A stretch of DNA of 64,000 bases, taken from the IMG/VR virus record IMGVR_UViG_2687453424_000001, one strand, 5' to 3'. The DNA is from a virus. Lineage: Duplodnaviria; Heunggongvirae; Uroviricota; Caudoviricetes. The translations under genes and the position numbers were made by a program. This document shows positions 24,301 to 50,371 of this stretch, one piece after another. A model generated the notes under the pieces. That model saw nothing but the letters and a program-made list of their open reading frames with translations, did not search any database and was not told the DNA's origin. Within the stretch, counting starts at the first letter, position 1, and every line of letters begins with the position of its first letter.

Positions 24301-26728
24301 NNNNNNNNNNNNNNNNNNNNNNNNNNNNNNNNNNNNNNNNNNNNNNNNNNNNNNNNNNNNNNNNNNNNNNNNNNNNNNNNNNNNNNNNNNNNNNNNNNNN
24401 NNNNNNNNNNNNNNNNNNNNNNNNNNNNNNNNNNNNNNNNNNNNNNNNNNNNNNNNNNNNNNNNNNNNNNNNNNNNNNNNNNNNNNNNNNNNNNNNNNNN
24501 NNNNNNNNNNNNNNNNNNNNNNNNNNNNNNNNNNNNNNNNNNNNNNNNNNNNNNNNNNNNNNNNNNNNNNNNNNNNNNNNNNNNNNNNNNNNNNNNNNNN
24601 NNNNNNNNNNNNNNNNNNNNNNNNNNNNNNNNNNNNNNNNNNNNNNNNNNNNNNNNNNNNNNNNNNNNNNNNNNNNNNNNNNNNNNNNNNNNNNNNNNNN
24701 NNNNNNNNNNNNNNNNNNNNNNNNNNNNNNNNNNNNNNNNNNNNNNNNNNNNNNNNNNNNNNNNNNNNNNNNNNNNNNNNNNNNNNNNNNNNNNNNNNNN
24801 NNNNNNNNNNNNNNNNNNNNNNNNNNNNNNNNNNNNNNNNNNNNNNNNNNNNNNNNNNNNNNNNNNNNNNNNNNNNNNNNNNNNNNNNNNNNNNNNNNNN
24901 NNNNNNNNNNNNNNNNNNNNNNNNNNNNNNNNNNNNNNNNNNNNNNNNNNNNNNNNNNNNNNNNNNNNNNNNNNNNNNNNNNNNNNNNNNNNNNNNNNNN
25001 NNNNNNNNNNNNNNNNNNNNNNNNNNNNNNNNNNNNNNNNNNNNNNNNNNNNNNNNNNNNNNNNNNNNNNNNNNNNNNNNNNNNNNNNNNNNNNNNNNNN
25101 NNNNNNNNNNNNNNNNNNNNNNNNNNNNNNNNNNNNNNNNNNNNNNNNNNNNNNNNNNNNNNNNNNNNNNNNNNNNNNNNNNNNNNNNNNNNNNNNNNNN
25201 NNNNNNNNNNNNNNNNNNNNNNNNNNNNNNNNNNNNNNNNNNNNNNNNNNNNNNNNNNNNNNNNNNNNNNNNNNNNNNNNNNNNNNNNNNNNNNNNNNNN
25301 NNNNNNNNNNNNNNNNNNNNNNNNNNNNNNNNNNNNNNNNNNNNNNNNNNNNNNNNNNNNNNNNNNNNNNNNNNNNNNNNNNNNNNNNNNNNNNNNNNNN
25401 NNNNNNNNNNNNNNNNNNNNNNNNNNNNNNNNNNNNNNNNNNNNNNNNNNNNNNNNNNNNNNNNNNNNNNNNNNNNNNNNNNNNNNNNNNNNNNNNNNNN
25501 NNNNNNNNNNNNNNNNNNNNNNNNNNNNNNNNNNNNNNNNNNNNNNNNNNNNNNNNNNNNNNNNNNNNNNNNNNNNNNNNNNNNNNNNNNNNNNNNNNNN
25601 NNNNNNNNNNNNNNNNNNNNNNNNNNNNNNNNNNNNNNNNNNNNNNNNNNNNNNNNNNNNNNNNNNNNNNNNNNNNNNNNNNNNNNNNNNNNNNNNNNNN
25701 NNNNNNNNNNNNNNNNNNNNNNNNNNNNNNNNNNNNNNNNNNNNNNNNNNNNNNNNNNNNNNNNNNNNNNNNNNNNNNNNNNNNNNNNNNNNNNNNNNNN
25801 NNNNNNNNNNNNNNNNNNNNNNNNNNNNNNNNNNNNNNNNNNNNNNNNNNNNNNNNNNNNNNNNNNNNNNNNNNNNNNNNNNNNNNNNNNNNNNNNNNNN
25901 NNNNNNNNNNNNNNNNNNNNNNNNNNNNNNNNNNNNNNNNNNNNNNNNNNNNNNNNNNNNNNNNNNNNNNNNNNNNNNNNNNNNNNNNNNNNNNNNNNNN
26001 NNNNNNNNNNNNNNNNNNNNNNNNNNNNNNNNNNNNNNNNNNNNNNNNNNNNNNNNNNNNNNNNNNNNNNNNNNNNNNNNNNNNNNNNNNNNNNNNNNNN
26101 NNNNNNNNNNNNNNNNNNNNNNNNNNNNNNNNNNNNNNNNNNNNNNNNNNNNNNNNNNNNNNNNNNNNNNNNNNNNNNNNNNNNNNNNNNNNNNNNNNNN
26201 NNNNNNNNNNNNNNNNNNNNNNNNNNNNNNNNNNNNNNNNNNNNNNNNNNNNNNNNNNNNNNNNNNNNNNNNNNNNNNNNNNNNNNNNNNNNNNNNNNNN
26301 NNNNNNNNNNNNNNNNNNNNNNNNNNNNNNNNNNNNNNNNNNNNNNNNNNNNNNNNNNNNNNNNNNNNNNNNNNNNNNNNNNNNNNNNNNNNNNNNNNNN
26401 NNNNNNNNNNNNNNNNNNNNNNNNNNNNNNNNNNNNNNNNNNNNNNNNNNNNNNNNNNNNNNNNNNNNNNNNNNNNNNNNNNNNNNNNNNNNNNNNNNNN
26501 NNNNNNNNNNNNNNNNNNNNNNNNNNNNNNNNNNNNNNNNNNNNNNNNNNNNNNNNNNNNNNNNNNNNNNNNNNNNNNNNNNNNNNNNNNNNNNNNNNNN
26601 NNNNNNNNNNNNNNNNNNNNNNNNNNNNNNNNNNNNNNNNNNNNNNNNNNNNNNNNNNNNNNNNNNNNNNNNNNNNNNNNNNNNNNNNNNNNNNNNNNNN
26701 NNNNNNNNNNNNNNNNNNNNNNNNNNNN
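21378..26728. other. assembly gap (N run)
   Basis: continuous n. Confidence 1.
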
Positions 26729-26924
26729 GGCAGTGCAAGTGTAAGCAGTGGTCAAATGGGAAAGGACTTTTAGTGGCTCTGGACTAAGCTAGAAAGAGCT
26801 GAGAACTTCCAACTGTATAAATACTCTTCCCATTTTCAGTCATCCGTAGAATACTTTATACGCCAAAGGAAAAATGTCAGCAGTGTTCTACTGGTAAATA
26901 AATAACACAGGCAAAATGATTTTT

Positions 26925-27480
26925 GATGAGAAAATGAACATGAGCCGGCTGTGCAGTCGCTTGGGGTATTGTGTGCAGTTCTGGTGTCCTCAACATAAAA
27001 AGGACATGGAACTGTTGGAGCAAGTCCAGAGGAGGGCCACAAGGATGATCAGGGGACTGGAGCACCTCCCATATGAAGACAGGCTGAGGAAGTTGGGGCT
27101 GTTCAGCCTGGAGAAGAGAAGGCTGCGTGGAGACCTCAGAGCAGCCTTCCAGTATCTGAAGGGGGCCTTAAGTATGCTGGAGAGGGGCTCTTCACTAGGG
27201 ACTGTAGTGATAGGACAAGGGGTAACATGCTCAAACATAAACAGGGGAAGTTTATATTGGATCTAAGGAAGAAGTTCTTGACTGTAAGGGTGGTGAGGCA
27301 CTGGAAGAGGTTGCCCAGGGAAGCTGTGAATGCTCCATTCCTGGCGGTGTTCAAGGCCGTTTTGGATAGAGCCTTGGGTGACATGGTTTAGTGGGAGGTG
27401 TCCCTGCCCATAGCAGGGGGGTTGGAACTAGATGATCTTAAGGTCCTTTCCAACCCTAACTATTCTATGATTCTACAATT
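26925..27480 (+). mobile_element. CR1 LINE 3' fragment (ORF2 C-terminus and 3' end)
   Basis: Plus-strand translation ..[56 protein letters not shown]..; ends with ..ggttggaactagatgatcttaaggtcctttccaaccctaactattctatgattc. Confidence 0.85.
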
Positions 27481-27539
27481 CTAAGGCCATGCCGAGCCTC
27501 TCTTGTGCACCTCAGACTCATCTGAGTCATAAGTACAAG

Positions 27540-28083
27540 TAGTGAACTTTACAATCAAGTTGGATTTTATCTGATATCCCTTGTGATTATCAGAGCTGGA
27601 CAAAGCACTGCTTCAGAGCAAACCTGACTCCCATCCAACCTGGCCTTGAACACTGCCAAGGATGGGGCAGCCACAGCTTCTCTGGGCACTCAGTGCCTGC
27701 ACCTCAGCACCCTCACAGGGAAGTACTTTGTCTTAATATCCAAGATAAATCTTCCTTTTTTCAGCTTAAAGCCATTCCCACTTGTCCTCTCAGTGCACAG
27801 CCTTTTAAAATGCCCCTCTCCAGACTTCCTGTAGGCCCTGTCTAGGTATGAGCAGCTTGCTAAGATGTCTCCTTGGAGCCTTCTCTTCTTCAGGCTTAAA
27901 AACTCCAGCTCTCACAGCTGTCATCATTGGAGATGCACTCCATCCCTTAGCGAATCTCTGTGACTCTTCATAAGCCCATCGTTATAGGACCATGAAACAA
28001 CAGAGGTTGGAAGGGAACCCACAAGGTCTCGAGTCCAACCAATTGGGAACAGGATCAGAGCAGAGTGGCTCAGGGCTTGAAAC
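27540..28083 (-). mobile_element. CR1-like 3' fragments (two pieces, second is a 3'-terminus motif at ~27990-28083)
   Basis: ..catccaacctggccttgaacactgccaaggatggggcagccacagcttctctgggcac..cctcacagggaag.. and ..ggttggaagggaacccacaaggtctcgagtccaacc..gtggctcagggc.. Confidence 0.6.
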
Positions 28084-28084
28084 A

Positions 28085-28294
28085 GTCTGAGTTGGAAATC
28101 TGATGAAAGATCGATTGGCAATCCGGGCAATCATCACGGTAAAAAAACAGAACTTTATCAGAATGATTAGCGAGCGTCACGACCGGTCGCTGTTTTTCCA
28201 CGTGATTCACGTATTGATGACTAGCAAAACCACTAACAGCTAAAACCACCACGATTACCGCTAGGACTTTGCTAACCCGTTTAATTAAGGTCAC
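28085..28294 (-). CDS. membrane-anchored thioredoxin-like (CxxC) protein, 3'-truncated at the bacterial/host junction; GTG start
   Basis: MTLIKRVSKVLAVIVVVLAVSGF (TM anchor) ...VLFFYRDDCPDCQSIF (CPDC active-site motif); start overlaps the upstream gene by 14 nt; ORF ends inside CR1-like host sequence. Confidence 0.6.
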
Positions 28295-28898
28295 TGGCTT
28301 TAAAGCTACTACCTAAATTTTGTACCGCGGTGATTCGATTCGTGGTGGTATCGAAGGTCACCTGGTAAAGCACCGTCGCCTTTTGCCAGTCGTTATCGCC
28401 ACTCTTGCTTTGGTAACTAACAACCGCCAAGCCTTTCATGTTTCGCCCCTGCTTACTTTGTGTATACATATTCAGTTGGTTTAACTTGGCTGAAACACTA
28501 TTGCTATCGCCATAAGTCCCTTTATTGGAAAAGTATTGCTGATATAACTTGTCGGAAATCAAGTTTTTAACGCCATCTTTACGCTGACCGTAGGTCTTGG
28601 GCTTAAAGTTATTCATGACATCAAAGAACTTGGTGACCACCGTATTAAAGCTAAGTTCAGCCGGACTTTTGTCTTTATTATTTTGGTAGGTCTTATAACT
28701 GTCAATTTGGGTGCTCAATAACTGCTTTTGTTGGTTGGTTTTAGTCAATTGCTGACTAACTTGTCGCTTCTGTTGTTGTAAGCGCGTGATCTGCTGATGC
28801 GCCTGTTTAACTTGGCTATGTTGATAGGCATTCGCCCCTAATGACAGAACTAAGATCAAGCTACCAATCACAACACTTAAAACCATGCTACGCTTCAT
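28281..28898 (-). CDS. VirB8-like T4SS membrane protein (PrgL/TraM-like topology: N-terminal TM, coiled coil, globular domain)
   Basis: 205-aa ORF MKRSMVLSVVIGSLILVLSLGANA..; Q/K-rich coiled-coil segment; RBS aaggaggg ~7 nt upstream of ATG; family call from topology and operon context only. Confidence 0.5.
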   Translation of the reverse strand: MKRSMVLSVVIGSLILVLSLGANAYQHSQVKQAHQQITRLQQQKRQVSQQLTKTNQQKQLLSTQIDSYKTYQNNKDKSPAELSFNTVVTKFFDVMNNFKPKTYGQRKDGVKNLISDKLYQQYFSNKGTYGDSNSVSAKLNQLNMYTQSKQGRNMKGLAVVSYQSKSGDNDWQKATVLYQVTFDTTTNRITAVQNLGSSFKASDLN

Positions 28899-28912
28899 TT
28901 GTTTGTCCCTCC
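28899..28912 (-). promoter_or_regulatory. Shine-Dalgarno site (AAGGAGGG) for the VirB8-like ORF
   Basis: Minus-strand taaggagggacaaacaaATG; the upstream gene's TAA stop abuts the RBS. Confidence 0.7.
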
Positions 28913-29767
28913 TTACTTCTTGATTGGCCGGGCTAACGTCACATCACCACCACTTAGCAAGCTATAAAAAGCGGTGCCAAAGGTGCTTTCGTTAACCTTG
29001 TCGCCTGTCCCACCTTGCTCAATAATCTTGGTGGCTTTGCCTTGCCATTTGCCTAACAGAATGGCCGTATGGCCGTTGTTTCCCGCGCCGGCGCCTTGAT
29101 TGACAATCACAATATCGCCGGCTTTCGCGTCATTTTCACTGATTTGTTTAAGATATTGATGACTGCCTTTGGCGTCACTGGCCATCGTGCCGGTAAACCA
29201 GCCCATGTTGGCGGGTACCTTGTAACCAGCTTTATTCAGGGCTAACCAGACAAAGCCGGAACAATCCGTGCCACCAGTTTTATTAGGATTTTTTAAATCG
29301 CTACCTAGATCAGGACTGGGGTGCGTTTGCACATAGTAGAAGTCCCCCTTCATGCTTTCCGCGTTTTTGACGATACTACCGCCGGAATAACTCGGGTCAC
29401 TATCACAACCTAGCTCGGTCAGATCGCCGGAACTCGCGTTGTCTAAGGTATTGCCCGCTACTGGATCACTGGCACCAAACACGGAATACCAGTGATCGGC
29501 ATAACCGTATCTTTGGCTTAAATACCATTGCTCCGGGTTTTTGCTCATGCCCTCAAAATCCATCAACCAGTCTTTGGTCGCTTTGTGCACGTCCGTGTAT
29601 TTGAATATCTTCTTATTTGACGCATAGTAACTACTGTTCAATTCTTGGTCGAGATAATCTAATTGCACCCCGAGATTTGTGGCTGGTTTGTTTTCTTTGT
29701 GAGCTAAGTCTTCCAGTTTATCTTTTCGGCCACCTAACCACTGGGCTAATCCCGTGGCACCGGAACT
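28913..29767 (-). CDS. CHAP-domain peptidoglycan hydrolase (T4SS-associated cell-wall hydrolase), C-terminal 285 aa; 5' part in gap
   Basis: ..GGTDCSGFVWLALNKAGY.. (catalytic Cys) and ..NGHTAILLG.. (His) CHAP signature; stop TAA at 28913-28915. Confidence 0.8.
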   Translation of the reverse strand, partial: SSGATGLAQWLGGRKDKLEDLAHKENKPATNLGVQLDYLDQELNSSYYASNKKIFKYTDVHKATKDWLMDFEGMSKNPEQWYLSQRYGYADHWYSVFGASDPVAGNTLDNASSGDLTELGCDSDPSYSGGSIVKNAESMKGDFYYVQTHPSPDLGSDLKNPNKTGGTDCSGFVWLALNKAGYKVPANMGWFTGTMASDAKGSHQYLKQISENDAKAGDIVIVNQGAGAGNNGHTAILLGKWQGKATKIIEQGGTGDKVNESTFGTAFYSLLSGGDVTLARPIKK

Positions 29768-32700
29768 NNNNNNNNNNNNNNNNNNNNNNNNNNNNNNNNN
29801 NNNNNNNNNNNNNNNNNNNNNNNNNNNNNNNNNNNNNNNNNNNNNNNNNNNNNNNNNNNNNNNNNNNNNNNNNNNNNNNNNNNNNNNNNNNNNNNNNNNN
29901 NNNNNNNNNNNNNNNNNNNNNNNNNNNNNNNNNNNNNNNNNNNNNNNNNNNNNNNNNNNNNNNNNNNNNNNNNNNNNNNNNNNNNNNNNNNNNNNNNNNN
30001 NNNNNNNNNNNNNNNNNNNNNNNNNNNNNNNNNNNNNNNNNNNNNNNNNNNNNNNNNNNNNNNNNNNNNNNNNNNNNNNNNNNNNNNNNNNNNNNNNNNN
30101 NNNNNNNNNNNNNNNNNNNNNNNNNNNNNNNNNNNNNNNNNNNNNNNNNNNNNNNNNNNNNNNNNNNNNNNNNNNNNNNNNNNNNNNNNNNNNNNNNNNN
30201 NNNNNNNNNNNNNNNNNNNNNNNNNNNNNNNNNNNNNNNNNNNNNNNNNNNNNNNNNNNNNNNNNNNNNNNNNNNNNNNNNNNNNNNNNNNNNNNNNNNN
30301 NNNNNNNNNNNNNNNNNNNNNNNNNNNNNNNNNNNNNNNNNNNNNNNNNNNNNNNNNNNNNNNNNNNNNNNNNNNNNNNNNNNNNNNNNNNNNNNNNNNN
30401 NNNNNNNNNNNNNNNNNNNNNNNNNNNNNNNNNNNNNNNNNNNNNNNNNNNNNNNNNNNNNNNNNNNNNNNNNNNNNNNNNNNNNNNNNNNNNNNNNNNN
30501 NNNNNNNNNNNNNNNNNNNNNNNNNNNNNNNNNNNNNNNNNNNNNNNNNNNNNNNNNNNNNNNNNNNNNNNNNNNNNNNNNNNNNNNNNNNNNNNNNNNN
30601 NNNNNNNNNNNNNNNNNNNNNNNNNNNNNNNNNNNNNNNNNNNNNNNNNNNNNNNNNNNNNNNNNNNNNNNNNNNNNNNNNNNNNNNNNNNNNNNNNNNN
30701 NNNNNNNNNNNNNNNNNNNNNNNNNNNNNNNNNNNNNNNNNNNNNNNNNNNNNNNNNNNNNNNNNNNNNNNNNNNNNNNNNNNNNNNNNNNNNNNNNNNN
30801 NNNNNNNNNNNNNNNNNNNNNNNNNNNNNNNNNNNNNNNNNNNNNNNNNNNNNNNNNNNNNNNNNNNNNNNNNNNNNNNNNNNNNNNNNNNNNNNNNNNN
30901 NNNNNNNNNNNNNNNNNNNNNNNNNNNNNNNNNNNNNNNNNNNNNNNNNNNNNNNNNNNNNNNNNNNNNNNNNNNNNNNNNNNNNNNNNNNNNNNNNNNN
31001 NNNNNNNNNNNNNNNNNNNNNNNNNNNNNNNNNNNNNNNNNNNNNNNNNNNNNNNNNNNNNNNNNNNNNNNNNNNNNNNNNNNNNNNNNNNNNNNNNNNN
31101 NNNNNNNNNNNNNNNNNNNNNNNNNNNNNNNNNNNNNNNNNNNNNNNNNNNNNNNNNNNNNNNNNNNNNNNNNNNNNNNNNNNNNNNNNNNNNNNNNNNN
31201 NNNNNNNNNNNNNNNNNNNNNNNNNNNNNNNNNNNNNNNNNNNNNNNNNNNNNNNNNNNNNNNNNNNNNNNNNNNNNNNNNNNNNNNNNNNNNNNNNNNN
31301 NNNNNNNNNNNNNNNNNNNNNNNNNNNNNNNNNNNNNNNNNNNNNNNNNNNNNNNNNNNNNNNNNNNNNNNNNNNNNNNNNNNNNNNNNNNNNNNNNNNN
31401 NNNNNNNNNNNNNNNNNNNNNNNNNNNNNNNNNNNNNNNNNNNNNNNNNNNNNNNNNNNNNNNNNNNNNNNNNNNNNNNNNNNNNNNNNNNNNNNNNNNN
31501 NNNNNNNNNNNNNNNNNNNNNNNNNNNNNNNNNNNNNNNNNNNNNNNNNNNNNNNNNNNNNNNNNNNNNNNNNNNNNNNNNNNNNNNNNNNNNNNNNNNN
31601 NNNNNNNNNNNNNNNNNNNNNNNNNNNNNNNNNNNNNNNNNNNNNNNNNNNNNNNNNNNNNNNNNNNNNNNNNNNNNNNNNNNNNNNNNNNNNNNNNNNN
31701 NNNNNNNNNNNNNNNNNNNNNNNNNNNNNNNNNNNNNNNNNNNNNNNNNNNNNNNNNNNNNNNNNNNNNNNNNNNNNNNNNNNNNNNNNNNNNNNNNNNN
31801 NNNNNNNNNNNNNNNNNNNNNNNNNNNNNNNNNNNNNNNNNNNNNNNNNNNNNNNNNNNNNNNNNNNNNNNNNNNNNNNNNNNNNNNNNNNNNNNNNNNN
31901 NNNNNNNNNNNNNNNNNNNNNNNNNNNNNNNNNNNNNNNNNNNNNNNNNNNNNNNNNNNNNNNNNNNNNNNNNNNNNNNNNNNNNNNNNNNNNNNNNNNN
32001 NNNNNNNNNNNNNNNNNNNNNNNNNNNNNNNNNNNNNNNNNNNNNNNNNNNNNNNNNNNNNNNNNNNNNNNNNNNNNNNNNNNNNNNNNNNNNNNNNNNN
32101 NNNNNNNNNNNNNNNNNNNNNNNNNNNNNNNNNNNNNNNNNNNNNNNNNNNNNNNNNNNNNNNNNNNNNNNNNNNNNNNNNNNNNNNNNNNNNNNNNNNN
32201 NNNNNNNNNNNNNNNNNNNNNNNNNNNNNNNNNNNNNNNNNNNNNNNNNNNNNNNNNNNNNNNNNNNNNNNNNNNNNNNNNNNNNNNNNNNNNNNNNNNN
32301 NNNNNNNNNNNNNNNNNNNNNNNNNNNNNNNNNNNNNNNNNNNNNNNNNNNNNNNNNNNNNNNNNNNNNNNNNNNNNNNNNNNNNNNNNNNNNNNNNNNN
32401 NNNNNNNNNNNNNNNNNNNNNNNNNNNNNNNNNNNNNNNNNNNNNNNNNNNNNNNNNNNNNNNNNNNNNNNNNNNNNNNNNNNNNNNNNNNNNNNNNNNN
32501 NNNNNNNNNNNNNNNNNNNNNNNNNNNNNNNNNNNNNNNNNNNNNNNNNNNNNNNNNNNNNNNNNNNNNNNNNNNNNNNNNNNNNNNNNNNNNNNNNNNN
32601 NNNNNNNNNNNNNNNNNNNNNNNNNNNNNNNNNNNNNNNNNNNNNNNNNNNNNNNNNNNNNNNNNNNNNNNNNNNNNNNNNNNNNNNNNNNNNNNNNNNN

Positions 32701-35083
32701 NNNNNNNNNNNNNNNNNNNNNNNNNNNNNNNNNNNNNNNNNNNNNNNNNNNNNNNNNNNNNNNNNNNNNNNNNNNNNNNNNNNNNNNNNNNNNNNNNNNN
32801 NNNNNNNNNNNNNNNNNNNNNNNNNNNNNNNNNNNNNNNNNNNNNNNNNNNNNNNNNNNNNNNNNNNNNNNNNNNNNNNNNNNNNNNNNNNNNNNNNNNN
32901 NNNNNNNNNNNNNNNNNNNNNNNNNNNNNNNNNNNNNNNNNNNNNNNNNNNNNNNNNNNNNNNNNNNNNNNNNNNNNNNNNNNNNNNNNNNNNNNNNNNN
33001 NNNNNNNNNNNNNNNNNNNNNNNNNNNNNNNNNNNNNNNNNNNNNNNNNNNNNNNNNNNNNNNNNNNNNNNNNNNNNNNNNNNNNNNNNNNNNNNNNNNN
33101 NNNNNNNNNNNNNNNNNNNNNNNNNNNNNNNNNNNNNNNNNNNNNNNNNNNNNNNNNNNNNNNNNNNNNNNNNNNNNNNNNNNNNNNNNNNNNNNNNNNN
33201 NNNNNNNNNNNNNNNNNNNNNNNNNNNNNNNNNNNNNNNNNNNNNNNNNNNNNNNNNNNNNNNNNNNNNNNNNNNNNNNNNNNNNNNNNNNNNNNNNNNN
33301 NNNNNNNNNNNNNNNNNNNNNNNNNNNNNNNNNNNNNNNNNNNNNNNNNNNNNNNNNNNNNNNNNNNNNNNNNNNNNNNNNNNNNNNNNNNNNNNNNNNN
33401 NNNNNNNNNNNNNNNNNNNNNNNNNNNNNNNNNNNNNNNNNNNNNNNNNNNNNNNNNNNNNNNNNNNNNNNNNNNNNNNNNNNNNNNNNNNNNNNNNNNN
33501 NNNNNNNNNNNNNNNNNNNNNNNNNNNNNNNNNNNNNNNNNNNNNNNNNNNNNNNNNNNNNNNNNNNNNNNNNNNNNNNNNNNNNNNNNNNNNNNNNNNN
33601 NNNNNNNNNNNNNNNNNNNNNNNNNNNNNNNNNNNNNNNNNNNNNNNNNNNNNNNNNNNNNNNNNNNNNNNNNNNNNNNNNNNNNNNNNNNNNNNNNNNN
33701 NNNNNNNNNNNNNNNNNNNNNNNNNNNNNNNNNNNNNNNNNNNNNNNNNNNNNNNNNNNNNNNNNNNNNNNNNNNNNNNNNNNNNNNNNNNNNNNNNNNN
33801 NNNNNNNNNNNNNNNNNNNNNNNNNNNNNNNNNNNNNNNNNNNNNNNNNNNNNNNNNNNNNNNNNNNNNNNNNNNNNNNNNNNNNNNNNNNNNNNNNNNN
33901 NNNNNNNNNNNNNNNNNNNNNNNNNNNNNNNNNNNNNNNNNNNNNNNNNNNNNNNNNNNNNNNNNNNNNNNNNNNNNNNNNNNNNNNNNNNNNNNNNNNN
34001 NNNNNNNNNNNNNNNNNNNNNNNNNNNNNNNNNNNNNNNNNNNNNNNNNNNNNNNNNNNNNNNNNNNNNNNNNNNNNNNNNNNNNNNNNNNNNNNNNNNN
34101 NNNNNNNNNNNNNNNNNNNNNNNNNNNNNNNNNNNNNNNNNNNNNNNNNNNNNNNNNNNNNNNNNNNNNNNNNNNNNNNNNNNNNNNNNNNNNNNNNNNN
34201 NNNNNNNNNNNNNNNNNNNNNNNNNNNNNNNNNNNNNNNNNNNNNNNNNNNNNNNNNNNNNNNNNNNNNNNNNNNNNNNNNNNNNNNNNNNNNNNNNNNN
34301 NNNNNNNNNNNNNNNNNNNNNNNNNNNNNNNNNNNNNNNNNNNNNNNNNNNNNNNNNNNNNNNNNNNNNNNNNNNNNNNNNNNNNNNNNNNNNNNNNNNN
34401 NNNNNNNNNNNNNNNNNNNNNNNNNNNNNNNNNNNNNNNNNNNNNNNNNNNNNNNNNNNNNNNNNNNNNNNNNNNNNNNNNNNNNNNNNNNNNNNNNNNN
34501 NNNNNNNNNNNNNNNNNNNNNNNNNNNNNNNNNNNNNNNNNNNNNNNNNNNNNNNNNNNNNNNNNNNNNNNNNNNNNNNNNNNNNNNNNNNNNNNNNNNN
34601 NNNNNNNNNNNNNNNNNNNNNNNNNNNNNNNNNNNNNNNNNNNNNNNNNNNNNNNNNNNNNNNNNNNNNNNNNNNNNNNNNNNNNNNNNNNNNNNNNNNN
34701 NNNNNNNNNNNNNNNNNNNNNNNNNNNNNNNNNNNNNNNNNNNNNNNNNNNNNNNNNNNNNNNNNNNNNNNNNNNNNNNNNNNNNNNNNNNNNNNNNNNN
34801 NNNNNNNNNNNNNNNNNNNNNNNNNNNNNNNNNNNNNNNNNNNNNNNNNNNNNNNNNNNNNNNNNNNNNNNNNNNNNNNNNNNNNNNNNNNNNNNNNNNN
34901 NNNNNNNNNNNNNNNNNNNNNNNNNNNNNNNNNNNNNNNNNNNNNNNNNNNNNNNNNNNNNNNNNNNNNNNNNNNNNNNNNNNNNNNNNNNNNNNNNNNN
35001 NNNNNNNNNNNNNNNNNNNNNNNNNNNNNNNNNNNNNNNNNNNNNNNNNNNNNNNNNNNNNNNNNNNNNNNNNNNNNNNNNNN
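29768..35083. other. assembly gap (N run) inside the bacterial block
   Basis: continuous n. Confidence 1.
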
Positions 35084-35311
35084 CTTTAGTGACTTGACCT
35101 TATCTGGCAAGGTATAAGTTAAAACAACCTTCTGGTCTTGCTCAACAACATTAACTAACTGCAAGAAATTGGGATCAGCTTGCTTTAATTCGTTTAGCTC
35201 ACTTAATTGGTCGTAGCGAAATTGATTGTGATTGAGTTCGAGGATTAGCTTGTTCCCTTGTCGTTTGAACGTGCCAACCTCAATATTCAATAGCTGGTTT
35301 GCTTTACTCAT
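35084..35311 (-). CDS. hypothetical protein, N-terminal 76 aa; may be the N-terminus of the CHAP hydrolase or a separate gene
   Basis: ATG at 35311-35309 overlaps the VirB4-like stop (35304-35306) by 8 nt; strong RBS gaaggaggg upstream; MSKANQLLNIEVGTFKRQGNKLILELNHNQ.. Confidence 0.5.
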
Positions 35312-37168
35312 TTAAAGTCCCTCCTTCTTCTTCGGTGGTGGTCAAGGCGTCAATTTCACTCGGTGTCAGGATCACACGCTTTTGATAATCCGGTTGTCCG
35401 GCGGTCTCACGGTTGTATTTTTCTTGGTAAGCTTCTGGGTCGATTAACCGCAATTCTTCTTCGGTTAGCTCCACCCGCATAAAAGCGCGTTGGCTACCAT
35501 AGATCATCAGGGCTTCACCTTGTCTACGGCGTTCTAGTAACTTCTTTTCCTTATCCGAGAACGTCATTCTTAACTTAGTAATGACATCATCAACACCTTT
35601 ACCATCAAGGCCAAAGAATACCTTGGTATAGGAGTTCCCAATAATGGCTTCACCAATGTTCTGCCCAGTATCTGTCGTTCCTTCAATCACATCTTGAATT
35701 TGTTGCGTTCCGGCAATCGCCCCGGCATTGTACTTTCTAAAGCGCTTATAGGCTTGATGGAAAAAGGTAGCGGCCGCTTTATGCAAGGTCAGAAAATGAA
35801 ATTCGTCAACAAACAATTTCTTGCGGCTATGCCGATCTTTCGTGATTTCGTCCCACAAATATTGAAAAGTATTCAGGTAGGCTGCTGATTGGACTTCCTG
35901 TTCACTTTGCAGCGGTTTTAAATCAAAGGAAATGATCTTGCCCTTTAAGTTGACGTTGGTGTGTCCGTCAAATAGGCTGTTAGAACCATGGGTATAACTG
36001 CCTAAGATGTAGTAGAAGTCTTTAACCCGACTGAATTTGTCAGCGTCCTTATCAGCTAGTTTTTCCAACTCGTCATAGACATTGGATAAGGTCGGCCACT
36101 GATCGTCTTTAATCTCTTTTAAGCGGCTATATTTCAAAACGCCACTGTTGACATAAGCCTGTTTAACAACATCATCAAGGATTGCCAATTCAACTTGGGT
36201 AATCCCGGTTTTGAGGACTTCAAAGAATCCCTTTAGTCGTTGAATTTTATCTTTGACTAGTAAATCAAGGTTTGTGACCGCTTCATCAGCGCTTAGGATT
36301 TCTTCGGAAAAGATTTGTAGCGGGTTAATTTTGTACTTCGCATTGGAAGTTAAATGCAAGACTGCCCCACCCAAGGCTTCAACAATCTTGGTATATTCAT
36401 TTTCTGGATCAATAATGTAGAGTTGATAGTCTTGAATGGCATAGCGTAGGATTTTTTGGATCATATAGGTGGTCTTGCCGACCCCACTGGTACCAATAAC
36501 CACCATGTTTTGGTTCAACGTTTTGTTGCGATCCAACATATCCACGGCAATTAAGCTGTTGGTGTCTTTGTTAACCCCTTCAATATCGCTTCTAGGCTTT
36601 AAGTCCAAAATCTCGGCGTCATCAAAAGGAAACATGCTGCTGGCAACTTCGGTATTACTTTCCTTATACGTATAATCGCCTAATAGATTTTCGTTGATTG
36701 GCATAGTAGACCAAAAACTTTGAAAAGTTGCTTTAACGGGCACTAAGGGCTTCATTTGTAGCTTAATCAGTGTATTTTTAACGTTGTCAGTTAAATCGTC
36801 TAGTTCCGCTAAACTGTTAGCCCGCAGATAAACCAGCATATGTTGGTACACAAATGTGGTAGAATTATCGAGGTATTTATCTAGTTGCATATTGGCCGAA
36901 TCAATATAATTTTGCAGAATTTTCTTTTTATACGGGTCGAACGTATTTAGCTTCTGCGCTTCCTTATTTTGGATCGTCTTTTTGTAATAGGTAATCATTG
37001 AATTGTTACTGGCGCTGTCGATATATTGCACAATATCGATAACGCCTTTTTTGCGCTTTAATTCTGATAGCCAGTTGCCGTGAACTCGCTTGGGATAGTC
37101 AGCAATCGCTAACACCCGGATAAAGTTCTCCCCCGACTGCACGTAGGTGGGGTACTGTTCCCAACTGC
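35304..37168 (-). CDS. VirB4-like conjugative T4SS ATPase (TraE/PrgJ/TcpF family), C-terminal ~620 aa; 5' end truncated at the bacterial/host junction
   Basis: Walker A NMVVIGTSGVGKTTYMIQKI; Walker B KKLFVDEFHFL; C-terminal AGAIAGTQQIQDV; the first ~66 codons of ORF-track ORF 35304-37364 are read-through into GC-rich host DNA. Confidence 0.85.
35312..35325 (-). promoter_or_regulatory. Shine-Dalgarno site (GAAGGAGGG) inside the 3' end of the VirB4-like gene
   Basis: Minus-strand gaagaaggagggacttta-ATG. Confidence 0.65.
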
Positions 37169-38159
37169 AGGTAGTCTCATGTCCCTTTGATGGCTGGAAC
37201 CCCAAGAGGTGTAGCATGGAGACAAGAAAGATGAGGAGGGTGGATGCCCCCTGCATGAAGGGGAAACTTGGATTTCTGGAGGTCCTCTGTGTGACAGGGA
37301 ACAGGTGGGGTTGGCTTTTGTGACTGAGGATCAGAGGAGTGGATAAGAGGGACATTGTGCTCACAGTTACAAACTACTTGCTCAGGGAGGGGAAACAGAA
37401 AAGGTCTTTTGTCAGCACCTGAGGAAGCCTCCAGGCTAATGAGCAGGTACCTTGCAGGTAATTGCCCTGGTGGTCCCTGGCCATGCAAAGCAACAGGGTG
37501 CAACAATGTGGAGGGTCTTGGCACAACCGGTTAACACAGGTGCAGGGCGGGCCAACAAGGGTGATGCTCCCCTGGAAAAGCTGCTCAGGATGTGATCATC
37601 AGTGTCAGCCTTGGCTGTCATGAGCATGCAATAGTGGGGACTCAGATGCTAAAGGGCATGAGGAAGGCCAGCAGCAGAGAACAGACTCTGGACTTACTTG
37701 GGGACAATTCCAGGAGTTTCCATGGGAAGCGGCTCTGATGGTGAAGGAGCATGAGCAAGTCTGCTAACGATCCCTGAGCCTGGAATACCTGGAGGGCTTC
37801 CAAGGTCCACCAGGGCTTTTGCCACCTTTCTGAATGCCGGTCAGGCTCCTGAGGGCTTTAGCACAGTTGCAGAGCACCAGCGCATTCTGGAATGGCCGGT
37901 GTTATTCCTCAGCCTTGCCAGAGCCTGCTGAGGCCTCTGCCTCCATCTAGAATGCTTGGGGAGATTCTGCAGGATTGGTGCAGACTGCCAGGGCCCTGCC
38001 ATGTTCTGCAATGTTGGGTGTCCTTCCAAGCGTGCTGGTGCAAGCACTTCCCTGGGCATTGCTGGAACCCTCCAGTTTCCCAGCAGGGCCTTCGCCGCCT
38101 TCCAGTAGCCTCGATGTGCTGCCGCGGTGCTGTGGTTTAAGTCCAGTCAGTAATTCAGA

Positions 38160-38290
38160 ACCACGTAGTCGCTCGCTCACTCTCCCCCCTTCCTCCCCCC
38201 CACTCCCAGAGGGATGGGAAGGAGAATCGAAAAAATATAACTCGCACAGGTTGAGATAAGAACAGTCAAGTAACTAAGGAATAGCACAAA
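38160..38290 (-). repeat. LTR-like repeat, partial copy, interrupted by CR1
   Basis: ..gtggtttaagtccagtcag..ctcccccttcctccccc..cccagagggatgggaaggagaatcgaaa..ggttgagataagaacag..taactaagg.. matches 63290-63440. Confidence 0.6.
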
Positions 38291-41200
38291 CCACAGCCGC
38301 TACCACCAGTAATAATAGTAGAATCATAGAATCGTAGAATCATAGAATAGTTAGGATGGGAAAGGACCTTAAGACCNNNNNNNNNNNNNNNNNNNNNNNN
38401 NNNNNNNNNNNNNNNNNNNNNNNNNNNNNNNNNNNNNNNNNNNNNNNNNNNNNNNNNNNNNNNNNNNNNNNNNNNNNNNNNNNNNNNNNNNNNNNNNNNN
38501 NNNNNNNNNNNNNNNNNNNNNNNNNNNNNNNNNNNNNNNNNNNNNNNNNNNNNNNNNNNNNNNNNNNNNNNNNNNNNNNNNNNNNNNNNNNNNNNNNNNN
38601 NNNNNNNNNNNNNNNNNNNNNNNNNNNNNNNNNNNNNNNNNNNNNNNNNNNNNNNNNNNNNNNNNNNNNNNNNNNNNNNNNNNNNNNNNNNNNNNNNNNN
38701 NNNNNNNNNNNNNNNNNNNNNNNNNNNNNNNNNNNNNNNNNNNNNNNNNNNNNNNNNNNNNNNNNNNNNNNNNNNNNNNNNNNNNNNNNNNNNNNNNNNN
38801 NNNNNNNNNNNNNNNNNNNNNNNNNNNNNNNNNNNNNNNNNNNNNNNNNNNNNNNNNNNNNNNNNNNNNNNNNNNNNNNNNNNNNNNNNNNNNNNNNNNN
38901 NNNNNNNNNNNNNNNNNNNNNNNNNNNNNNNNNNNNNNNNNNNNNNNNNNNNNNNNNNNNNNNNNNNNNNNNNNNNNNNNNNNNNNNNNNNNNNNNNNNN
39001 NNNNNNNNNNNNNNNNNNNNNNNNNNNNNNNNNNNNNNNNNNNNNNNNNNNNNNNNNNNNNNNNNNNNNNNNNNNNNNNNNNNNNNNNNNNNNNNNNNNN
39101 NNNNNNNNNNNNNNNNNNNNNNNNNNNNNNNNNNNNNNNNNNNNNNNNNNNNNNNNNNNNNNNNNNNNNNNNNNNNNNNNNNNNNNNNNNNNNNNNNNNN
39201 NNNNNNNNNNNNNNNNNNNNNNNNNNNNNNNNNNNNNNNNNNNNNNNNNNNNNNNNNNNNNNNNNNNNNNNNNNNNNNNNNNNNNNNNNNNNNNNNNNNN
39301 NNNNNNNNNNNNNNNNNNNNNNNNNNNNNNNNNNNNNNNNNNNNNNNNNNNNNNNNNNNNNNNNNNNNNNNNNNNNNNNNNNNNNNNNNNNNNNNNNNNN
39401 NNNNNNNNNNNNNNNNNNNNNNNNNNNNNNNNNNNNNNNNNNNNNNNNNNNNNNNNNNNNNNNNNNNNNNNNNNNNNNNNNNNNNNNNNNNNNNNNNNNN
39501 NNNNNNNNNNNNNNNNNNNNNNNNNNNNNNNNNNNNNNNNNNNNNNNNNNNNNNNNNNNNNNNNNNNNNNNNNNNNNNNNNNNNNNNNNNNNNNNNNNNN
39601 NNNNNNNNNNNNNNNNNNNNNNNNNNNNNNNNNNNNNNNNNNNNNNNNNNNNNNNNNNNNNNNNNNNNNNNNNNNNNNNNNNNNNNNNNNNNNNNNNNNN
39701 NNNNNNNNNNNNNNNNNNNNNNNNNNNNNNNNNNNNNNNNNNNNNNNNNNNNNNNNNNNNNNNNNNNNNNNNNNNNNNNNNNNNNNNNNNNNNNNNNNNN
39801 NNNNNNNNNNNNNNNNNNNNNNNNNNNNNNNNNNNNNNNNNNNNNNNNNNNNNNNNNNNNNNNNNNNNNNNNNNNNNNNNNNNNNNNNNNNNNNNNNNNN
39901 NNNNNNNNNNNNNNNNNNNNNNNNNNNNNNNNNNNNNNNNNNNNNNNNNNNNNNNNNNNNNNNNNNNNNNNNNNNNNNNNNNNNNNNNNNNNNNNNNNNN
40001 NNNNGTCCTCGTGGCCCTCCTCTGGACTTGTTCCAACAGTTCCATGTCCTTTTTATGTTGAGGACACCAGAACTGCACACAATACCCAAGTGAGGTCTCA
40101 CGAGAGCAGAGTAGTGGGGCAGGATCACCTCCTTCGACCTGCTGCTCACGCTCATTTTGATGCAGCCCAGGATACGGTTGCTTTCTGGGCTGCGAGCACA
40201 CACTGCAGCTGGCTCATGTTCATTTTTCATCGACCAACACCCCCAAGTCTTTCTCCACAGGGCTGCTCTGGATCTCTGCTATCCCCAACCTGTAGCTGTG
40301 CCTGGGATTGCTCCGACCCAGGTGTAGGACCTTGCACTTGGCATGGTTAAACTTCATCAGGTTGGCATCAGCCCACCTCACAAGCGTGTCGAGGTCCCTC
40401 TGCATGGCATCCCTTCCCTCCGGCGTATCAACCGAACCACACAGCTTGGTGTCATCGGCAAACTTGCTGAGGGCGCACTCAATCCCACTGTCCATGTCAG
40501 CGACAAAGATGTTGAACAAGACCGATCCCAACACTGATCCCTGAGGAACACCACTTGTTACCGGTCTCCAGCTGGACATCGAGCCATTGACCACAACTCC
40601 TTGCGTGCGGCCATCCAGCCAGATCTTTATCCACCGAGTGGTCCACCCATCAAATTGATGTCTCTCCAATTAGAGACAAGGATGTCATGTCGGACAGTGT
40701 CGAACGCTTTGCACAAGTCCAGGTAGATGACCTCAGCTGCTCTACCCCTATCCATCAGTTCCATAGCCCCATCATAGAAGGCCACCAAATTGATCAGGCA
40801 GGATTTCCCCTTTGTGAAGCCATGCTGGCTGTCACCAACCACCTCCTTGTTTTTCATGTGCCTTAGCATGCCTTGCAGGAGAATCTGCTCCAAGAGTTTG
40901 CCAGGCACAGAGGTGAGACTGACTGCTCTGTAATTCCCCTGATCATCCATTTTCCCCTTCTTGAAAACAGGGGCTATATTTCCCTTTTCCCAGTCATCGG
41001 GAGCTTCACCTGACTGCCATGATCTTTCAAATATGATGGACTGTGTAAACTTCATTTGCCAGCTCCTTCAGGACCCGTAGATGGATTTCATTAGGTCCCA
41101 TGGACATGTGCACGTTCAGGTTCTTAAGATGGTCTTGAACCAGATCCTGTCTTACAGTGGGCCCAAGGTCTTCATTCTCACAGTCCCTGCTTCTGCCTTC

Positions 41201-44500: not shown

Positions 44501-45706
44501 NNNNNNNNNNNNNNNNNNNNNNNNNNNNNNNNNNNNNNNNNNNNNNNNNNNNNNNNNNNNNNNNNNNNNNNNNNNNNNNNNNNNNNNNNNNNNNNNNNNN
44601 NNNNNNNNNNNNNNNNNNNNNNNNNNNNNNNNNNNNNNNNNNNNNNNNNNNNNNNNNNNNNNNNNNNNNNNNNNNNNNNNNNNNNNNNNNNNNNNNNNNN
44701 NNNNNNNNNNNNNNNNNNNNNNNNNNNNNNNNNNNNNNNNNNNNNNNNNNNNNNNNNNNNNNNNNNNNNNNNNNNNNNNNNNNNNNNNNNNNNNNNNNNN
44801 NNNNNNNNNNNNNNNNNNNNNNNNNNNNNNNNNNNNNNNNNNNNNNNNNNNNNNNNNNNNNNNNNNNNNNNNNNNNNNNNNNNNNNNNNNNNNNNNNNNN
44901 NNNNNNNNNNNNNNNNNNNNNNNNNNNNNNNNNNNNNNNNNNNNNNNNNNNNNNNNNNNNNNNNNNNNNNNNNNNNNNNNNNNNNNNNNNNNNNNNNNNN
45001 NNNNNNNNNNNNNNNNNNNNNNNNNNNNNNNNNNNNNNNNNNNNNNNNNNNNNNNNNNNNNNNNNNNNNNNNNNNNNNNNNNNNNNNNNNNNNNNNNNNN
45101 NNNNNNNNNNNNNNNNNNNNNNNNNNNNNNNNNNNNNNNNNNNNNNNNNNNNNNNNNNNNNNNNNNNNNNNNNNNNNNNNNNNNNNNNNNNNNNNNNNNN
45201 NNNNNNNNNNNNNNNNNNNNNNNNNNNNNNNNNNNNNNNNNNNNNNNNNNNNNNNNNNNNNNNNNNNNNNNNNNNNNNNNNNNNNNNNNNNNNNNNNNNN
45301 NNNNNNNNNNNNNNNNNNNNNNNNNNNNNNNNNNNNNNNNNNNNNNNNNNNNNNNNNNNNNNNNNNNNNNNNNNNNNNNNNNNNNNNNNNNNNNNNNNNN
45401 NNNNNNNNNNNNNNNNNNNNNNNNNNNNNNNNNNNNNNNNNNNNNNNNNNNNNNNNNNNNNNNNNNNNNNNNNNNNNNNNNNNNNNNNNNNNNNNNNNNN
45501 NNNNNNNNNNNNNNNNNNNNNNNNNNNNNNNNNNNNNNNNNNNNNNNNNNNNNNNNNNNNNNNNNNNNNNNNNNNNNNNNNNNNNNNNNNNNNNNNNNNN
45601 NNNNNNNNNNNNNNNNNNNNNNNNNNNNNNNNNNNNNNNNNNNNNNNNNNNNNNNNNNNNNNNNNNNNNNNNNNNNNNNNNNNNNNNNNNNNNNNNNNNN
45701 NNNNNN
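41516..45706. other. assembly gap (N run)
   Basis: continuous n. Confidence 1.
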
Positions 45707-48790: not shown

Positions 48791-49189
48791 AATACAGCTG
48801 AACAATGGACATGTGAGCAATCCCAGCTGTTTGGTTTTAGCCAAACTCTGACTTAAGTTGCAAGGTCTGAATTCAAGTTACTCAGGCTGTGAGGCCTAGC
48901 CTTAGGTTACTAAAGGACAGTTACGTGCAGTAGAATAAGGAACTTGGCATTTGCTCAAGGCTAACAAGATGTGGGAGCGGGATGGTGAAACTGCAAGTTA
49001 TGTGAGAAAGGTAGCGAATGGATAATTTTAGCTAGCTTGTTATCTGCTTCAAAATGTGTGGACTGCACTTCTGAGCCAATCACAATCTATATTGGTTACG
49101 TCTAGCCAATAGCAGTTCAATTTCTGGAAGCATATACTGTAGCTACTGTAGCTACTGTGCTACGACAGTGGTCTGTGGACCCCATTGGC

Positions 49190-49900: not shown

Positions 49901-50371
49901 TGTGGAGGGGGAGACTGGGCTAAGCTGAGCACGGGCAAAATGGTTATTACCGTATTTGTAGCTGTGTCTGTAAGTTTGTATTTGAGCTATGTTTCACAGG
50001 TGGTGATTGGTGCTTGGCTGTATCTGGGAGAGAGTGATGGAAAGAGGTGTGAAATGACATCCATGGCCCTTATGTGTCCAGATGACTTCGCTCACGGATC
50101 CAGTCAAGATGTGCCTTACGAACTTTGTAGCCAGCCGTTGAATACGACATCACTCAGGCCGGAAACACCTGCGTCTAGGTCCCTTTAGGCTGACGCTCTG
50201 TGTTTATTAGTATTAGGATGTTTGTTTCCTTCTTGTTTGATTATGTAATGCGCACTGTGTTTGAATACTTAGTGGCACAAACCTTTCTTACTTAGTTAAT
50301 AAGAGTTATAAGTTGCTTATCTGGAATAGCTGTTAAAACCCTGAGTTTTCTAGTCTTGAGGCGGGGGAGAT

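What the first reader, a model, noticed from the sequence alone, without database searches (positions are those of the whole stretch)
28085..37168. Bacterial conjugative T4SS gene block embedded in a bird scaffold
About 9 kb (3.8 kb sequenced, 5.3 kb gap) encodes collinear minus-strand genes for a VirB4-like ATPase, a small coupled ORF, a CHAP hydrolase, a VirB8-like membrane protein and a thioredoxin-like CxxC protein. That order matches Gram-positive conjugative plasmids and ICEs (pIP501 traE-traG-traH or pCF10 prgJ-prgK-prgL-like). Codon usage and lower GC look Lactobacillales-like, while flanks are CR1-rich vertebrate DNA. It is either foreign DNA assembled into a host scaffold or, far less likely, a very recent bacterium-to-bird transfer.
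Basis: partly seen in the sequence, partly recalled or inferred. Interest (0 to 1): 0.9.

Follow-up and report, generated by a model that had tools for sequence, protein, structure and literature searches.

The report
Lactobacillus plasmid fragment in bird scaffold
A 3.8-kb sequenced piece of the DNA-transfer (conjugation) operon of a Lactobacillus-family plasmid really does sit inside a gap-ridden bird scaffold, but every testable property says it is fresh bacterial DNA joined to bird repeats by sequencing or assembly error, not a gene transfer into the bird.

Summary
Window 28096-29767 and 35084-37167 are bacterial. They are 92-97.5% identical at the nucleotide level to about 170-200 Lactobacillaceae conjugative plasmids (MOBQ relaxase, MPF_T), best to Levilactobacillus brevis pLBN-3 and L. 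plantarum plasmids. On the minus strand the genes run traE-like VirB4 ATPase, traF/EssB-like, traG-like cell-wall hydrolase, traH-like VirB8-fold protein, thioredoxin-family protein. This matches the pIP501 traE-traH order. The flanks are bird DNA (CR1 retrotransposon tails).

The embedding is most likely an artefact, for five reasons.
- CpG observed/expected is about 1.0 in the block and 0.07-0.2 in the flanks.
- All five reading frames are intact, with pN/pS 0.03-0.05 against plasmid relatives.
- Both ends cut genes mid-codon-run, and no replication, relaxase or integration function is present.
- The two pieces are 1,473-1,494 bp apart in all 16 relatives measured, but 5,316 N apart here.
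- The CR1 copy cut at the left junction does not resume on the right flank.

The surrounding scaffold is 64% N. I rate contamination plus chimeric joining at about 0.93 and real integration at about 0.03. Read-level evidence, which I could not obtain, would be decisive. Interest is low.

The parts
26729..28095 (.). Left bird flank, in the same contig as the bacterial DNA. It holds CR1 retrotransposon tails, and the last CR1-like copy is cut off at 28095.
   Evidence: CpG o/e 0.07-0.19. The CR1 ORF at 26916-27263 hits avian proteins. Aligned with other in-window CR1 copies, this copy stops at the junction where the others continue.
28095..28096 (.). Left junction, bird | plasmid. It lies inside the thioredoxin-family gene, with no microhomology and no adapter.
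   Evidence: Base-by-base comparison with pLBN-3 (L002) and an L. plantarum plasmid (L001). No adapter found. The resemblance to the expected CR1 continuation is at chance level.
28096..28294 (-). First 66 codons of a 122-codon thioredoxin-family gene (signal/TM segment plus the CPDC motif). The 3' half is missing.
   Evidence: 65/66 identical to the pLBN-3 protein. The full-length relative passes the Pfam Thioredoxin cut-off. Relatives are annotated 'thioredoxin family protein'.
28281..28898 (-). Complete 205-codon traH-like gene: membrane anchor, long helix and an NTF2/VirB8-fold domain.
   Evidence: AF2 model pLDDT 76.6. The best PDB fold match is pIP501 TraH (5aiw, E 2.5e-5, TM 0.74), followed by VirB8 homologues. 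The closest homologues are 98% identical at the protein level, and all named hits are Lactobacillaceae, including Oenococcus.
28913..29767 (-). Last 284 codons of a 385-codon traG-like peptidoglycan hydrolase (end of the lysozyme-like domain plus the NlpC/P60-CHAP domain). The 5' part is lost in the gap.
   Evidence: Pfam Phage_lysozyme2 5e-19, NLPC_P60 2e-9, CHAP below cut-off. The full-length relative was scanned.
29768..35083 (.). Scaffold gap of 5,316 N. The matching interval measures 1,494 bp in six related contigs fetched and aligned here (two of them PLSDB plasmids) and 1,473-1,494 bp in twelve PLSDB plasmids, 16 distinct relatives in all. It would hold the rest of traF and the start of traG.
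   Evidence: coordinates.
35084..35311 (-). First 76 codons of a 472-codon traF/EssB-like conjugal transfer gene.
   Evidence: Relatives are annotated as a 472-aa conjugal transfer protein or EssB/YukC. Weak NCBIfam T7_EssB hit, 2.5e-4. TraF of pIP501 is an EssB/YukC structural homologue (PMC13037476).
35304..37167 (-). traE-like VirB4 ATPase, 620 of 672 codons. The first ~52 codons are missing at the right junction. Walker A is GTSGVGKTT and Walker B is VDEFHF.
   Evidence: Pfam P-loop_TraG 1e-16, DUF87, CagE_TrbE_VirB. NCBIfam conju_CD1110 3e-60. PDB 4ag5 VirB4 7e-43.
37167..37168 (.). Right junction, plasmid | bird, inside the VirB4 gene. The open frame runs on by chance into bird DNA up to 37364.
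   Evidence: A 683-aa chimeric product of this frame is already recorded as a called gene in the public protein collection.
37168..38376 (.). Right bird flank, in the same contig as the bacterial DNA. About 960 bp have no other copy in the window, followed by LTR/CR1-like repeats. It does not continue the CR1 copy cut at the left junction.
   Evidence: CpG o/e 0.11-0.20 over 37084-38083, rising to 0.41-0.68 in the LTR/CR1-like repeats near the contig end. Repeat matches only from 38131 onward. No CR1 continuation.

Best explanation
The block is a fragment of the mating-pair-formation (type IV secretion) operon of a Lactobacillaceae conjugative plasmid. If the gap equals that of its relatives, the fragment is about 5.25 kb. 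It got into the bird DNA sample or libraries as contamination and was joined to bird repeat sequence at both ends, either during library construction or during assembly and gap closing. In its bacterial home, roles are inferred from homology with pIP501. The VirB4/TraE ATPase powers the channel. TraF is an EssB-like membrane pseudokinase in the core complex. TraG opens the peptidoglycan. TraH is a VirB8-like scaffold. A membrane-anchored thioredoxin-like protein probably handles disulfides outside the membrane. In the bird scaffold the fragment does nothing. It lacks a promoter context, a relaxase, oriT, the coupling protein and a replicon, and three of its five genes are truncated by the junctions alone; two more gene ends run into the N gap. 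Shown here: the identity, gene content, exact breakpoints and composition of the block, and its inconsistency with an old or simple insertion. Inferred: that the joins are artefacts, and how they arose.
For: (1) Both pieces are 92-97.5% identical at the nucleotide level, over their full length, to many extant Lactobacillaceae conjugative plasmids, and are collinear with them. PLSDB types these plasmids as conjugative, MOBQ, MPF_T.
(2) Composition changes sharply at the breakpoints. CpG o/e is 0.76-1.42 inside the block and 0.07-0.2 in the adjoining flanks. There is no sign of vertebrate methylation decay.
(3) There are no stops or frameshifts in 3.75 kb. pN/pS against relatives is 0.03-0.05 for the long genes. 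Of 30 window-private substitutions, 21 are third-position and 21 are synonymous. All of the divergence therefore arose under bacterial selection.
(4) Both breakpoints fall inside genes, at arbitrary positions, without microhomology. No mobilisation or integration gene is included.
(5) The geometry is wrong for a simple insertion. The gap is 5,316 N, against 1,473-1,494 bp in 16 relatives.
(6) The CR1 copy cut at the left junction is not resumed on the right flank. The two bird flanks are therefore not the two halves of one target site, unless host DNA was also deleted.
(7) The setting is a very poor part of the assembly: 64% N, contigs of 1-5 kb made largely of repeats, and gaps almost all 4.2-5.3 kb.
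(8) The same plasmid backbone turns up as a stand-alone 12.7-kb contig in another very large WGS assembly (GCA_002924505.1, contig number above 1.6 million). This suggests the plasmid family is a recurrent contaminant.
(9) Internal inter-kingdom chimeras are a recognised class of assembly contamination (the FCS-GX 'FIX' action; PMC10898089).
Against: Both junctions lie within uninterrupted contig sequence, not across N runs. The two bacterial pieces are on the same strand, in plasmid order and face each other. They therefore behave as one fragment flanked by bird DNA on both sides, which is also what a true insertion would look like. Two independent random mis-joins would rarely give this arrangement. 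No adapter or linker marks either junction. No sequence overlap that could have misled an assembler was found. I had no access to reads, depth, mate pairs, the rest of the assembly or a second individual, so the artefact itself is inferred rather than demonstrated. Scaffold gap sizes are estimates and may be unreliable.
Confidence: 0.93

Rival explanations
1. The fragment is a genuine, very recent integration of a Lactobacillaceae plasmid fragment into the bird's nuclear genome. It would be germline and private to the lineage, or somatic in the sampled tissue, inserted by non-homologous end joining into a CR1-rich region.
For: Both junctions are assembled inside contigs. The two pieces are collinear and convergent, as expected for a single insert. 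Both flanks lie on the same scaffold.
Against: The block shows no CpG decay, no disabling mutation and purely bacterial selection signatures, so any insertion would have to be essentially contemporary. The gap is 3.8 kb too long for the collinear fragment. The interrupted CR1 is not resumed on the other side. The assembly is very poor in this region. From general knowledge, bacterium-to-vertebrate germline transfers of this kind are essentially undocumented, whereas bacterial contamination of draft assemblies is common.
Confidence: 0.03
2. This is a sub-variant of the artefact explanation. The bird-plasmid-bird arrangement existed as a physical chimeric molecule made in vitro, for example by intermolecular ligation of a size-selected ~5-kb plasmid fragment to bird fragments during mate-pair circularisation. 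It was not a purely computational mis-join. The confidence below is conditional on the block being an artefact at all.
For: The inferred fragment length of 5,250 bp (1,672 + 1,494 + 2,084) is close to the 4.2-5.3-kb gaps that dominate this scaffold, which hint at a ~5-kb jumping library. The junctions are blunt with no overlap, as ligation would give and as k-mer overlap assembly would not. The two ends behave as one molecule.
Against: No linker or adapter was found. The library types are unknown to me, because the assembly's paper could not be found. A single chimeric molecule would yield very few reads. The 5,316-N gap is still unexplained.
Confidence: 0.3

Closest known systems
Conjugation (tra/trs) region of Lactobacillaceae MOBQ / MPF_T plasmids, e.g. 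Levilactobacillus brevis pLBN-3 (NZ_CP050544) and L. plantarum E2 plasmid unnamed1 (NZ_CP110243)
   Same: 92-97.5% nucleotide identity over all 3,756 sequenced bases. The gene order and overlaps are identical (VirB4 - 472-aa TraF-like - hydrolase - 205-aa protein - thioredoxin).
   Different: No database plasmid exceeds 97.5% identity, and the best relative differs between the two pieces, so this is an unsequenced mosaic variant. Only a ~5-kb internal piece is present. Relaxase, VirD4, TrbL/VirB6, topoisomerase and the replicon are absent. The inter-piece distance is given as 5,316 N instead of ~1,494 bp.
pIP501 (Enterococcus, Inc18) T4SS operon, genes traE-traF-traG-traH
   Same: The order of functions is the same: VirB4 ATPase, EssB-like TraF, two-domain cell-wall hydrolase, VirB8-fold TraH. 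The 205-aa protein's best structural match in the PDB is pIP501 TraH itself (roles from PMC13037476).
   Different: Sequence identity to TraH is only about 11%. In pIP501 the next gene, traI, is described as a membrane anchor for TraJ; here it is a thioredoxin-family gene. The hydrolase's N-terminal domain scores as Phage_lysozyme2 much better than as SLT.
Internal inter-kingdom contamination chimeras in draft eukaryote assemblies (the class that NCBI FCS-GX flags as 'FIX')
   Same: A prokaryote segment with high identity to extant bacteria sits inside a eukaryote scaffold next to contig ends and gaps.
   Different: Here the joins lie inside contigs rather than only across N runs, and both ends of one bacterial fragment are joined to host DNA. 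That is less common and is why the block mimics an insertion.
Bona fide bacterium-to-animal integrations (e.g. Wolbachia inserts in insects and nematodes)
   Same: Bacterial DNA flanked by host DNA in an assembly.
   Different: Those cases involve germline-resident endosymbionts, and by general knowledge the older inserts show decay and are shared among individuals. Here the donor is a free-living or gut lactic acid bacterium's plasmid, the host is a vertebrate, and there is no decay at all.

Membership tests
Gram-positive conjugative T4SS module (pIP501/pSK41-type tra operon) | VirB4-family ATPase with Walker A and B motifs | tested here: met
   Pfam P-loop_TraG, DUF87 and CagE_TrbE_VirB all above cut-off; NCBIfam CD1110-type VirB4 3e-60 (below that model's full-length cut-off, because the gene is truncated); PDB 4ag5 7e-43. 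The motifs are visible in the translation.
Gram-positive conjugative T4SS module (pIP501/pSK41-type tra operon) | VirB1-like two-domain peptidoglycan hydrolase (glycosidase + cysteine peptidase) | tested here: met
   The window fragment has the end of Phage_lysozyme2 plus NlpC/P60. The full-length relative has both domains and a weak SLT hit. The first ~101 codons are lost in the gap.
Gram-positive conjugative T4SS module (pIP501/pSK41-type tra operon) | VirB8-fold (NTF2-like) bitopic membrane protein | tested here: met
   AF2 model (pLDDT 76.6) and Foldseek: pIP501 TraH first, then CagV, TrwG and VirB8 of Brucella and Agrobacterium. No sequence-profile hit.
Gram-positive conjugative T4SS module (pIP501/pSK41-type tra operon) | A complete transfer system: relaxase + oriT, VirD4 coupling protein, VirB6-like channel protein | tested here: not met
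   These are present in the related plasmids next to the homologous block but absent from the window. No other plasmid-like sequence occurs in any sequenced block. The window holds a fragment, not a system.
Lactobacillaceae MOBQ/MPF_T conjugative plasmid backbone | High nucleotide identity and collinearity with sequenced plasmids of that group | tested here: met
   172 and 201 PLSDB records hit, with 141 and 184 at 80% coverage or more. The best identities are 97.5% and 95.0%. Gene order is conserved.
Genuine horizontal transfer into the host germline | Host-type mutational imprint (CpG depletion, loss of reading frames, neutral substitution pattern) or other evidence of residence in the host | tested here: not met
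   CpG o/e is about 1.0 against 0.07-0.2 in the flanks. Frames are intact, pN/pS is 0.03-0.05, and private changes are mostly synonymous. This excludes only an old insertion.
Genuine horizontal transfer into the host germline | The flanks are the two halves of one contiguous host site | tested here: not met
   The CR1 copy cut at 28095 continues in four other in-window copies, but the continuation is absent from 37168-38376. A target-site deletion could still explain this. No empty-site sequence was available.
Genuine horizontal transfer into the host germline | Junction-spanning reads at host depth; presence in other individuals | not testable with these tools
   No reads, no depth and no second assembly. 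Exact-protein look-ups of flank and chimeric ORFs found nothing elsewhere.
Assembly contamination / chimeric join | Scaffold geometry inconsistent with the donor sequence | tested here: met
   5,316 N against 1,473-1,494 bp in 16 relatives. Caveat: gap sizes are estimates.
Assembly contamination / chimeric join | Other sequence from the same contaminant elsewhere in the assembly or in the reads | not testable with these tools
   The rest of GCA_001405275.1 could not be scanned. The exact 205-aa protein is on record only in that assembly.

The most novel reading that the evidence does not exclude
A lactic-acid-bacterium conjugative-plasmid fragment was integrated, within the last few generations or somatically, into a CR1-rich region of a bird chromosome. 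The two in-contig junctions would then be real. This would be a caught-in-the-act bacterium-to-vertebrate DNA transfer.
Probability: 0.03. Interest if true: 0.85.

Novelty: already known. Interest (0 to 1): 0.1.

Why it matters
As biology it does not matter much. The genes belong to a well-sampled plasmid family, and the embedding is almost certainly an artefact. It matters as data hygiene. The block sits inside a 5-Mb public scaffold (LN877770.1 of GCA_001405275.1), with junctions inside contigs, so it can pass simple contamination filters. It could be mistaken for horizontal gene transfer in automated screens. It has already put a chimeric bird-bacterium 'protein' of 683 aa into a public protein collection. 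If, against the odds, the junctions were real, it would be an exceptional observation of bacterial DNA entering a vertebrate genome.

Tried and rejected
(1) Overlap-driven mis-join. By eye, the plasmid sequence just inside the left junction seemed to resemble the expected continuation of the interrupted CR1. A scored comparison showed that about 74-78% of random plasmid windows align as well, so I rejected this.
(2) Adapter or linker at the junctions. No Nextera or TruSeq adapter sequence occurs anywhere in the window. The CTGCAG spanning the right junction is half plasmid and half bird, and the plasmid reads CTGAAC there, so it is a coincidence.
(3) Finding the source plasmid. No PLSDB record or contig fetched through the closest proteins exceeds 97.5% identity, and the best relative differs between the two pieces.
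(4) Finding an empty site or a second copy. Exact look-ups of a right-flank ORF and of the chimeric ORF returned nothing.
(5) More bacterial DNA in the window. The blocks with raised CpG (45707-46456 and 49207-50206) are not bacterial. One is a GC-rich stretch and the other an endogenous-retrovirus integrase.
(6) Apparent indels in the VirB4 alignment are an alignment artefact (AAC ATG against AAT CAA), not frameshifts.
(7) Identifying the species or paper behind GCA_001405275.1 / LN877770 by text search failed. The same was true for GCA_002924505.
(8) Sequence-only search of the 205-aa protein against Pfam, NCBIfam and PDB gave nothing meaningful. The fold comparison was needed.
Full report
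**What is in the sequence.** The window is a very gappy scaffold: nine sequenced blocks of 1-5.4 kb are separated by N runs, most of them 4.2-5.3 kb, and about 64% of the window is N. The reported region spans two of these blocks. Local alignment to related plasmids sets the bacterial limits at 28096-29767 and 35084-37167, a total of 3,756 bases. Both limits lie inside uninterrupted contig sequence that continues into vertebrate-type DNA, at 26729-28095 on the left and 37168-38376 on the right.

**Origin of the block.** Megablast against 72,556 plasmids found 172 records for the left piece and 201 for the right. Nearly all are Lactobacillaceae: Lactiplantibacillus, Latilactobacillus, Levilactobacillus, Lacticaseibacillus and Pediococcus. 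Of these, 168 and 197 respectively are typed as conjugative.
- The best matches are Levilactobacillus brevis pLBN-3 (97.5% on the left piece) and L. plantarum plasmids (95.0% on the right piece).
- Contigs fetched through the closest homologues of the one complete gene did no better, at 92-97.5%.
- The exact 205-residue protein is on record only in NCBI assembly GCA_001405275.1, scaffold LN877770.1 (5.03 Mb). This is evidently the source of the window.
- The bacterial DNA is therefore an unsequenced, mosaic member of a large and well-sampled plasmid family.

**Gene content.** All genes are on the minus strand and have the same order and overlaps as the annotated plasmids.
- VirB4-type ATPase, 35304-37167. 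It holds 620 of 672 codons and has Walker A and B motifs. Hits: Pfam P-loop_TraG, DUF87 and CagE_TrbE_VirB; NCBIfam CD1110-type VirB4 at 3e-60; PDB 4ag5 at 7e-43.
- 35084-35311. This is the first 76 codons of a 472-codon 'conjugal transfer protein' that some records annotate as EssB/YukC, so it is not a small ORF. The fragment gives a weak T7_EssB hit. pIP501 TraF has recently been shown to be an EssB/YukC structural homologue (PMC13037476).
- 28913-29767. This is the last 284 of 385 codons of a two-domain cell-wall hydrolase, with Phage_lysozyme2 plus NlpC/P60. CHAP scores just below its cut-off.
- 28281-28898. This is a complete 205-codon gene with no profile hit. An AlphaFold model (pLDDT 76.6) shows an N-terminal anchor, a long helix and an alpha+beta domain. 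Its best PDB match is TraH of pIP501 (5aiw, E 2.5e-5, TM 0.74), followed by many VirB8 homologues.
- 28096-28294. This is the first 66 of 122 codons of a thioredoxin-family protein and includes the CPDC motif. It is 65/66 identical to the pLBN-3 protein, which passes the Pfam Thioredoxin cut-off.

Two differences stand out. Sequence identity to TraH is only about 11%. A thioredoxin gene sits where pIP501 has traI.

**The flanks.** The left flank carries CR1 retrotransposon tails. A 116-residue CR1 ORF hits thousands of proteins, and all the named ones among the 120 best listed are from birds: Grus, Limosa, Mycteria and Pitangus. CpG observed/expected is 0.07-0.2 in the bird DNA next to both junctions, the normal vertebrate depletion, and jumps to 0.76-1.42 throughout the bacterial pieces. 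'Bird scaffold' is therefore a fair description.

**Insertion or artefact.** Several independent observations point the same way.
- *No host imprint.* CpG content is undepleted. There is not one stop or frameshift in 3.75 kb. pN/pS against six relatives is 0.03-0.05 for the long genes. Of 30 substitutions private to the window copy, 21 are at third codon positions and 21 are synonymous. Two apparent indels are an alignment artefact. All divergence from known plasmids therefore arose in bacteria, and any residence in the bird must be essentially zero generations old.
- *Arbitrary breakpoints.* Both breakpoints cut genes at arbitrary positions, with no microhomology, and the fragment carries nothing that could promote integration.
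- *Wrong geometry.* The two pieces are 1,494 bp apart in the six related contigs I aligned and 1,473-1,494 bp apart in twelve PLSDB records. That is 16 distinct relatives, since two plasmids fall in both sets. The scaffold places them 5,316 N apart.
- *Flanks do not match.* The CR1-like copy that ends at 28095 is cut where four other copies in the window run on (AACACYGCCAAGGATGG...). The right flank contains no such continuation. The two flanks are therefore not simply the two halves of one target site.
- *Poor neighbourhood.* The surrounding scaffold is repeat-rich and barely assembled.
- *Recurrence elsewhere.* The same plasmid backbone appears as a free 12.7-kb contig in another assembly with more than 1.6 million contigs (GCA_002924505.1). 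Internal prokaryote-in-eukaryote chimeras are a recognised contamination class (PMC10898089).

**What argues the other way.** The junctions are inside contigs. The two bacterial pieces are on the same strand, in plasmid order and convergent, so they represent one fragment of about 5.25 kb (1,672 + 1,494 + 2,084) with bird DNA at both ends. Two unrelated mis-joins would seldom produce this. A single physical or computational chimera would, and so would a true insertion. I found no adapter and no overlap that could have fooled an assembler. The fragment length is close to the dominant gap size in the scaffold. One plausible route is therefore intermolecular ligation in a ~5-kb jumping library, but this is speculation, because I could not find the assembly's methods. 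Without reads, depth, the rest of the assembly or another individual, the artefact is inferred and not shown.

**Verdict.** The best explanation is contaminant plasmid DNA chimerically joined to bird repeats (about 0.93). A real and very recent integration remains possible at about 0.03 and would be remarkable if true. The gene module itself is an already-known kind. Interest is low, apart from the practical point that this block can masquerade as horizontal gene transfer and has already produced a chimeric gene call in a public protein collection.

Noticed in passing
L007 (GCA_002924505.1, contig PPYE01644084.1, 12,662 bp): A stand-alone contig that carries the same Lactobacillaceae tra operon (94-94.6% identical to the window pieces). 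It sits in an NCBI WGS assembly whose contig numbering exceeds 1.6 million, presumably a large eukaryote draft. It is probably another case of contamination by this plasmid family.
   Followed up: partly
window 35304-37364 (minus strand); L003 1544-3595: The truncated VirB4 frame stays open by chance for about 65 codons into bird DNA. A 683-residue chimeric bird-bacterium product of it is already recorded as a called gene in the public protein collection.
   Followed up: partly
window 49185-49562 (+), within block 49207-50206: An ORF with a retroviral integrase core domain (Pfam rve, 2e-8; motif IKTDNGPAY), in a stretch with unusually high CpG o/e (about 0.8) for this window. It looks like a fairly young endogenous retrovirus.
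   Followed up: partly
window 45707-46456: A GC-rich stretch (59-65% GC) with CpG o/e 0.7-0.8 at the edge of a contig. It resembles a CpG island or an LTR. It has no Pfam hit and is not plasmid-like.
   Followed up: partly
window 27053-27367 and 27633-27946: Two CR1-like tails in inverted orientation (about 72% identity) just left of the bacterial block. A third, truncated CR1-like copy runs up to the junction.
   Followed up: partly
whole window (N runs at 5597-9958, 11062-15938, 21378-26728, 29768-35083, 41516-45706, 50372-54565, 57276-61433): The gaps are strikingly uniform at 4.2-5.4 kb, between contigs of only 1-5 kb. This suggests the stretch was chained together by one large-insert library, and that gap sizes and even contig order here may be unreliable.
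   Followed up: no
window 28096-29767 versus 35084-37167: The nearest relatives differ between the two pieces. They are pLBN-3 and a Logan contig (L005) at 97.5% for the left piece, and other plasmids at 94.6-95.0% for the right piece. This indicates recombination or mosaicism within the plasmid family.
   Followed up: no
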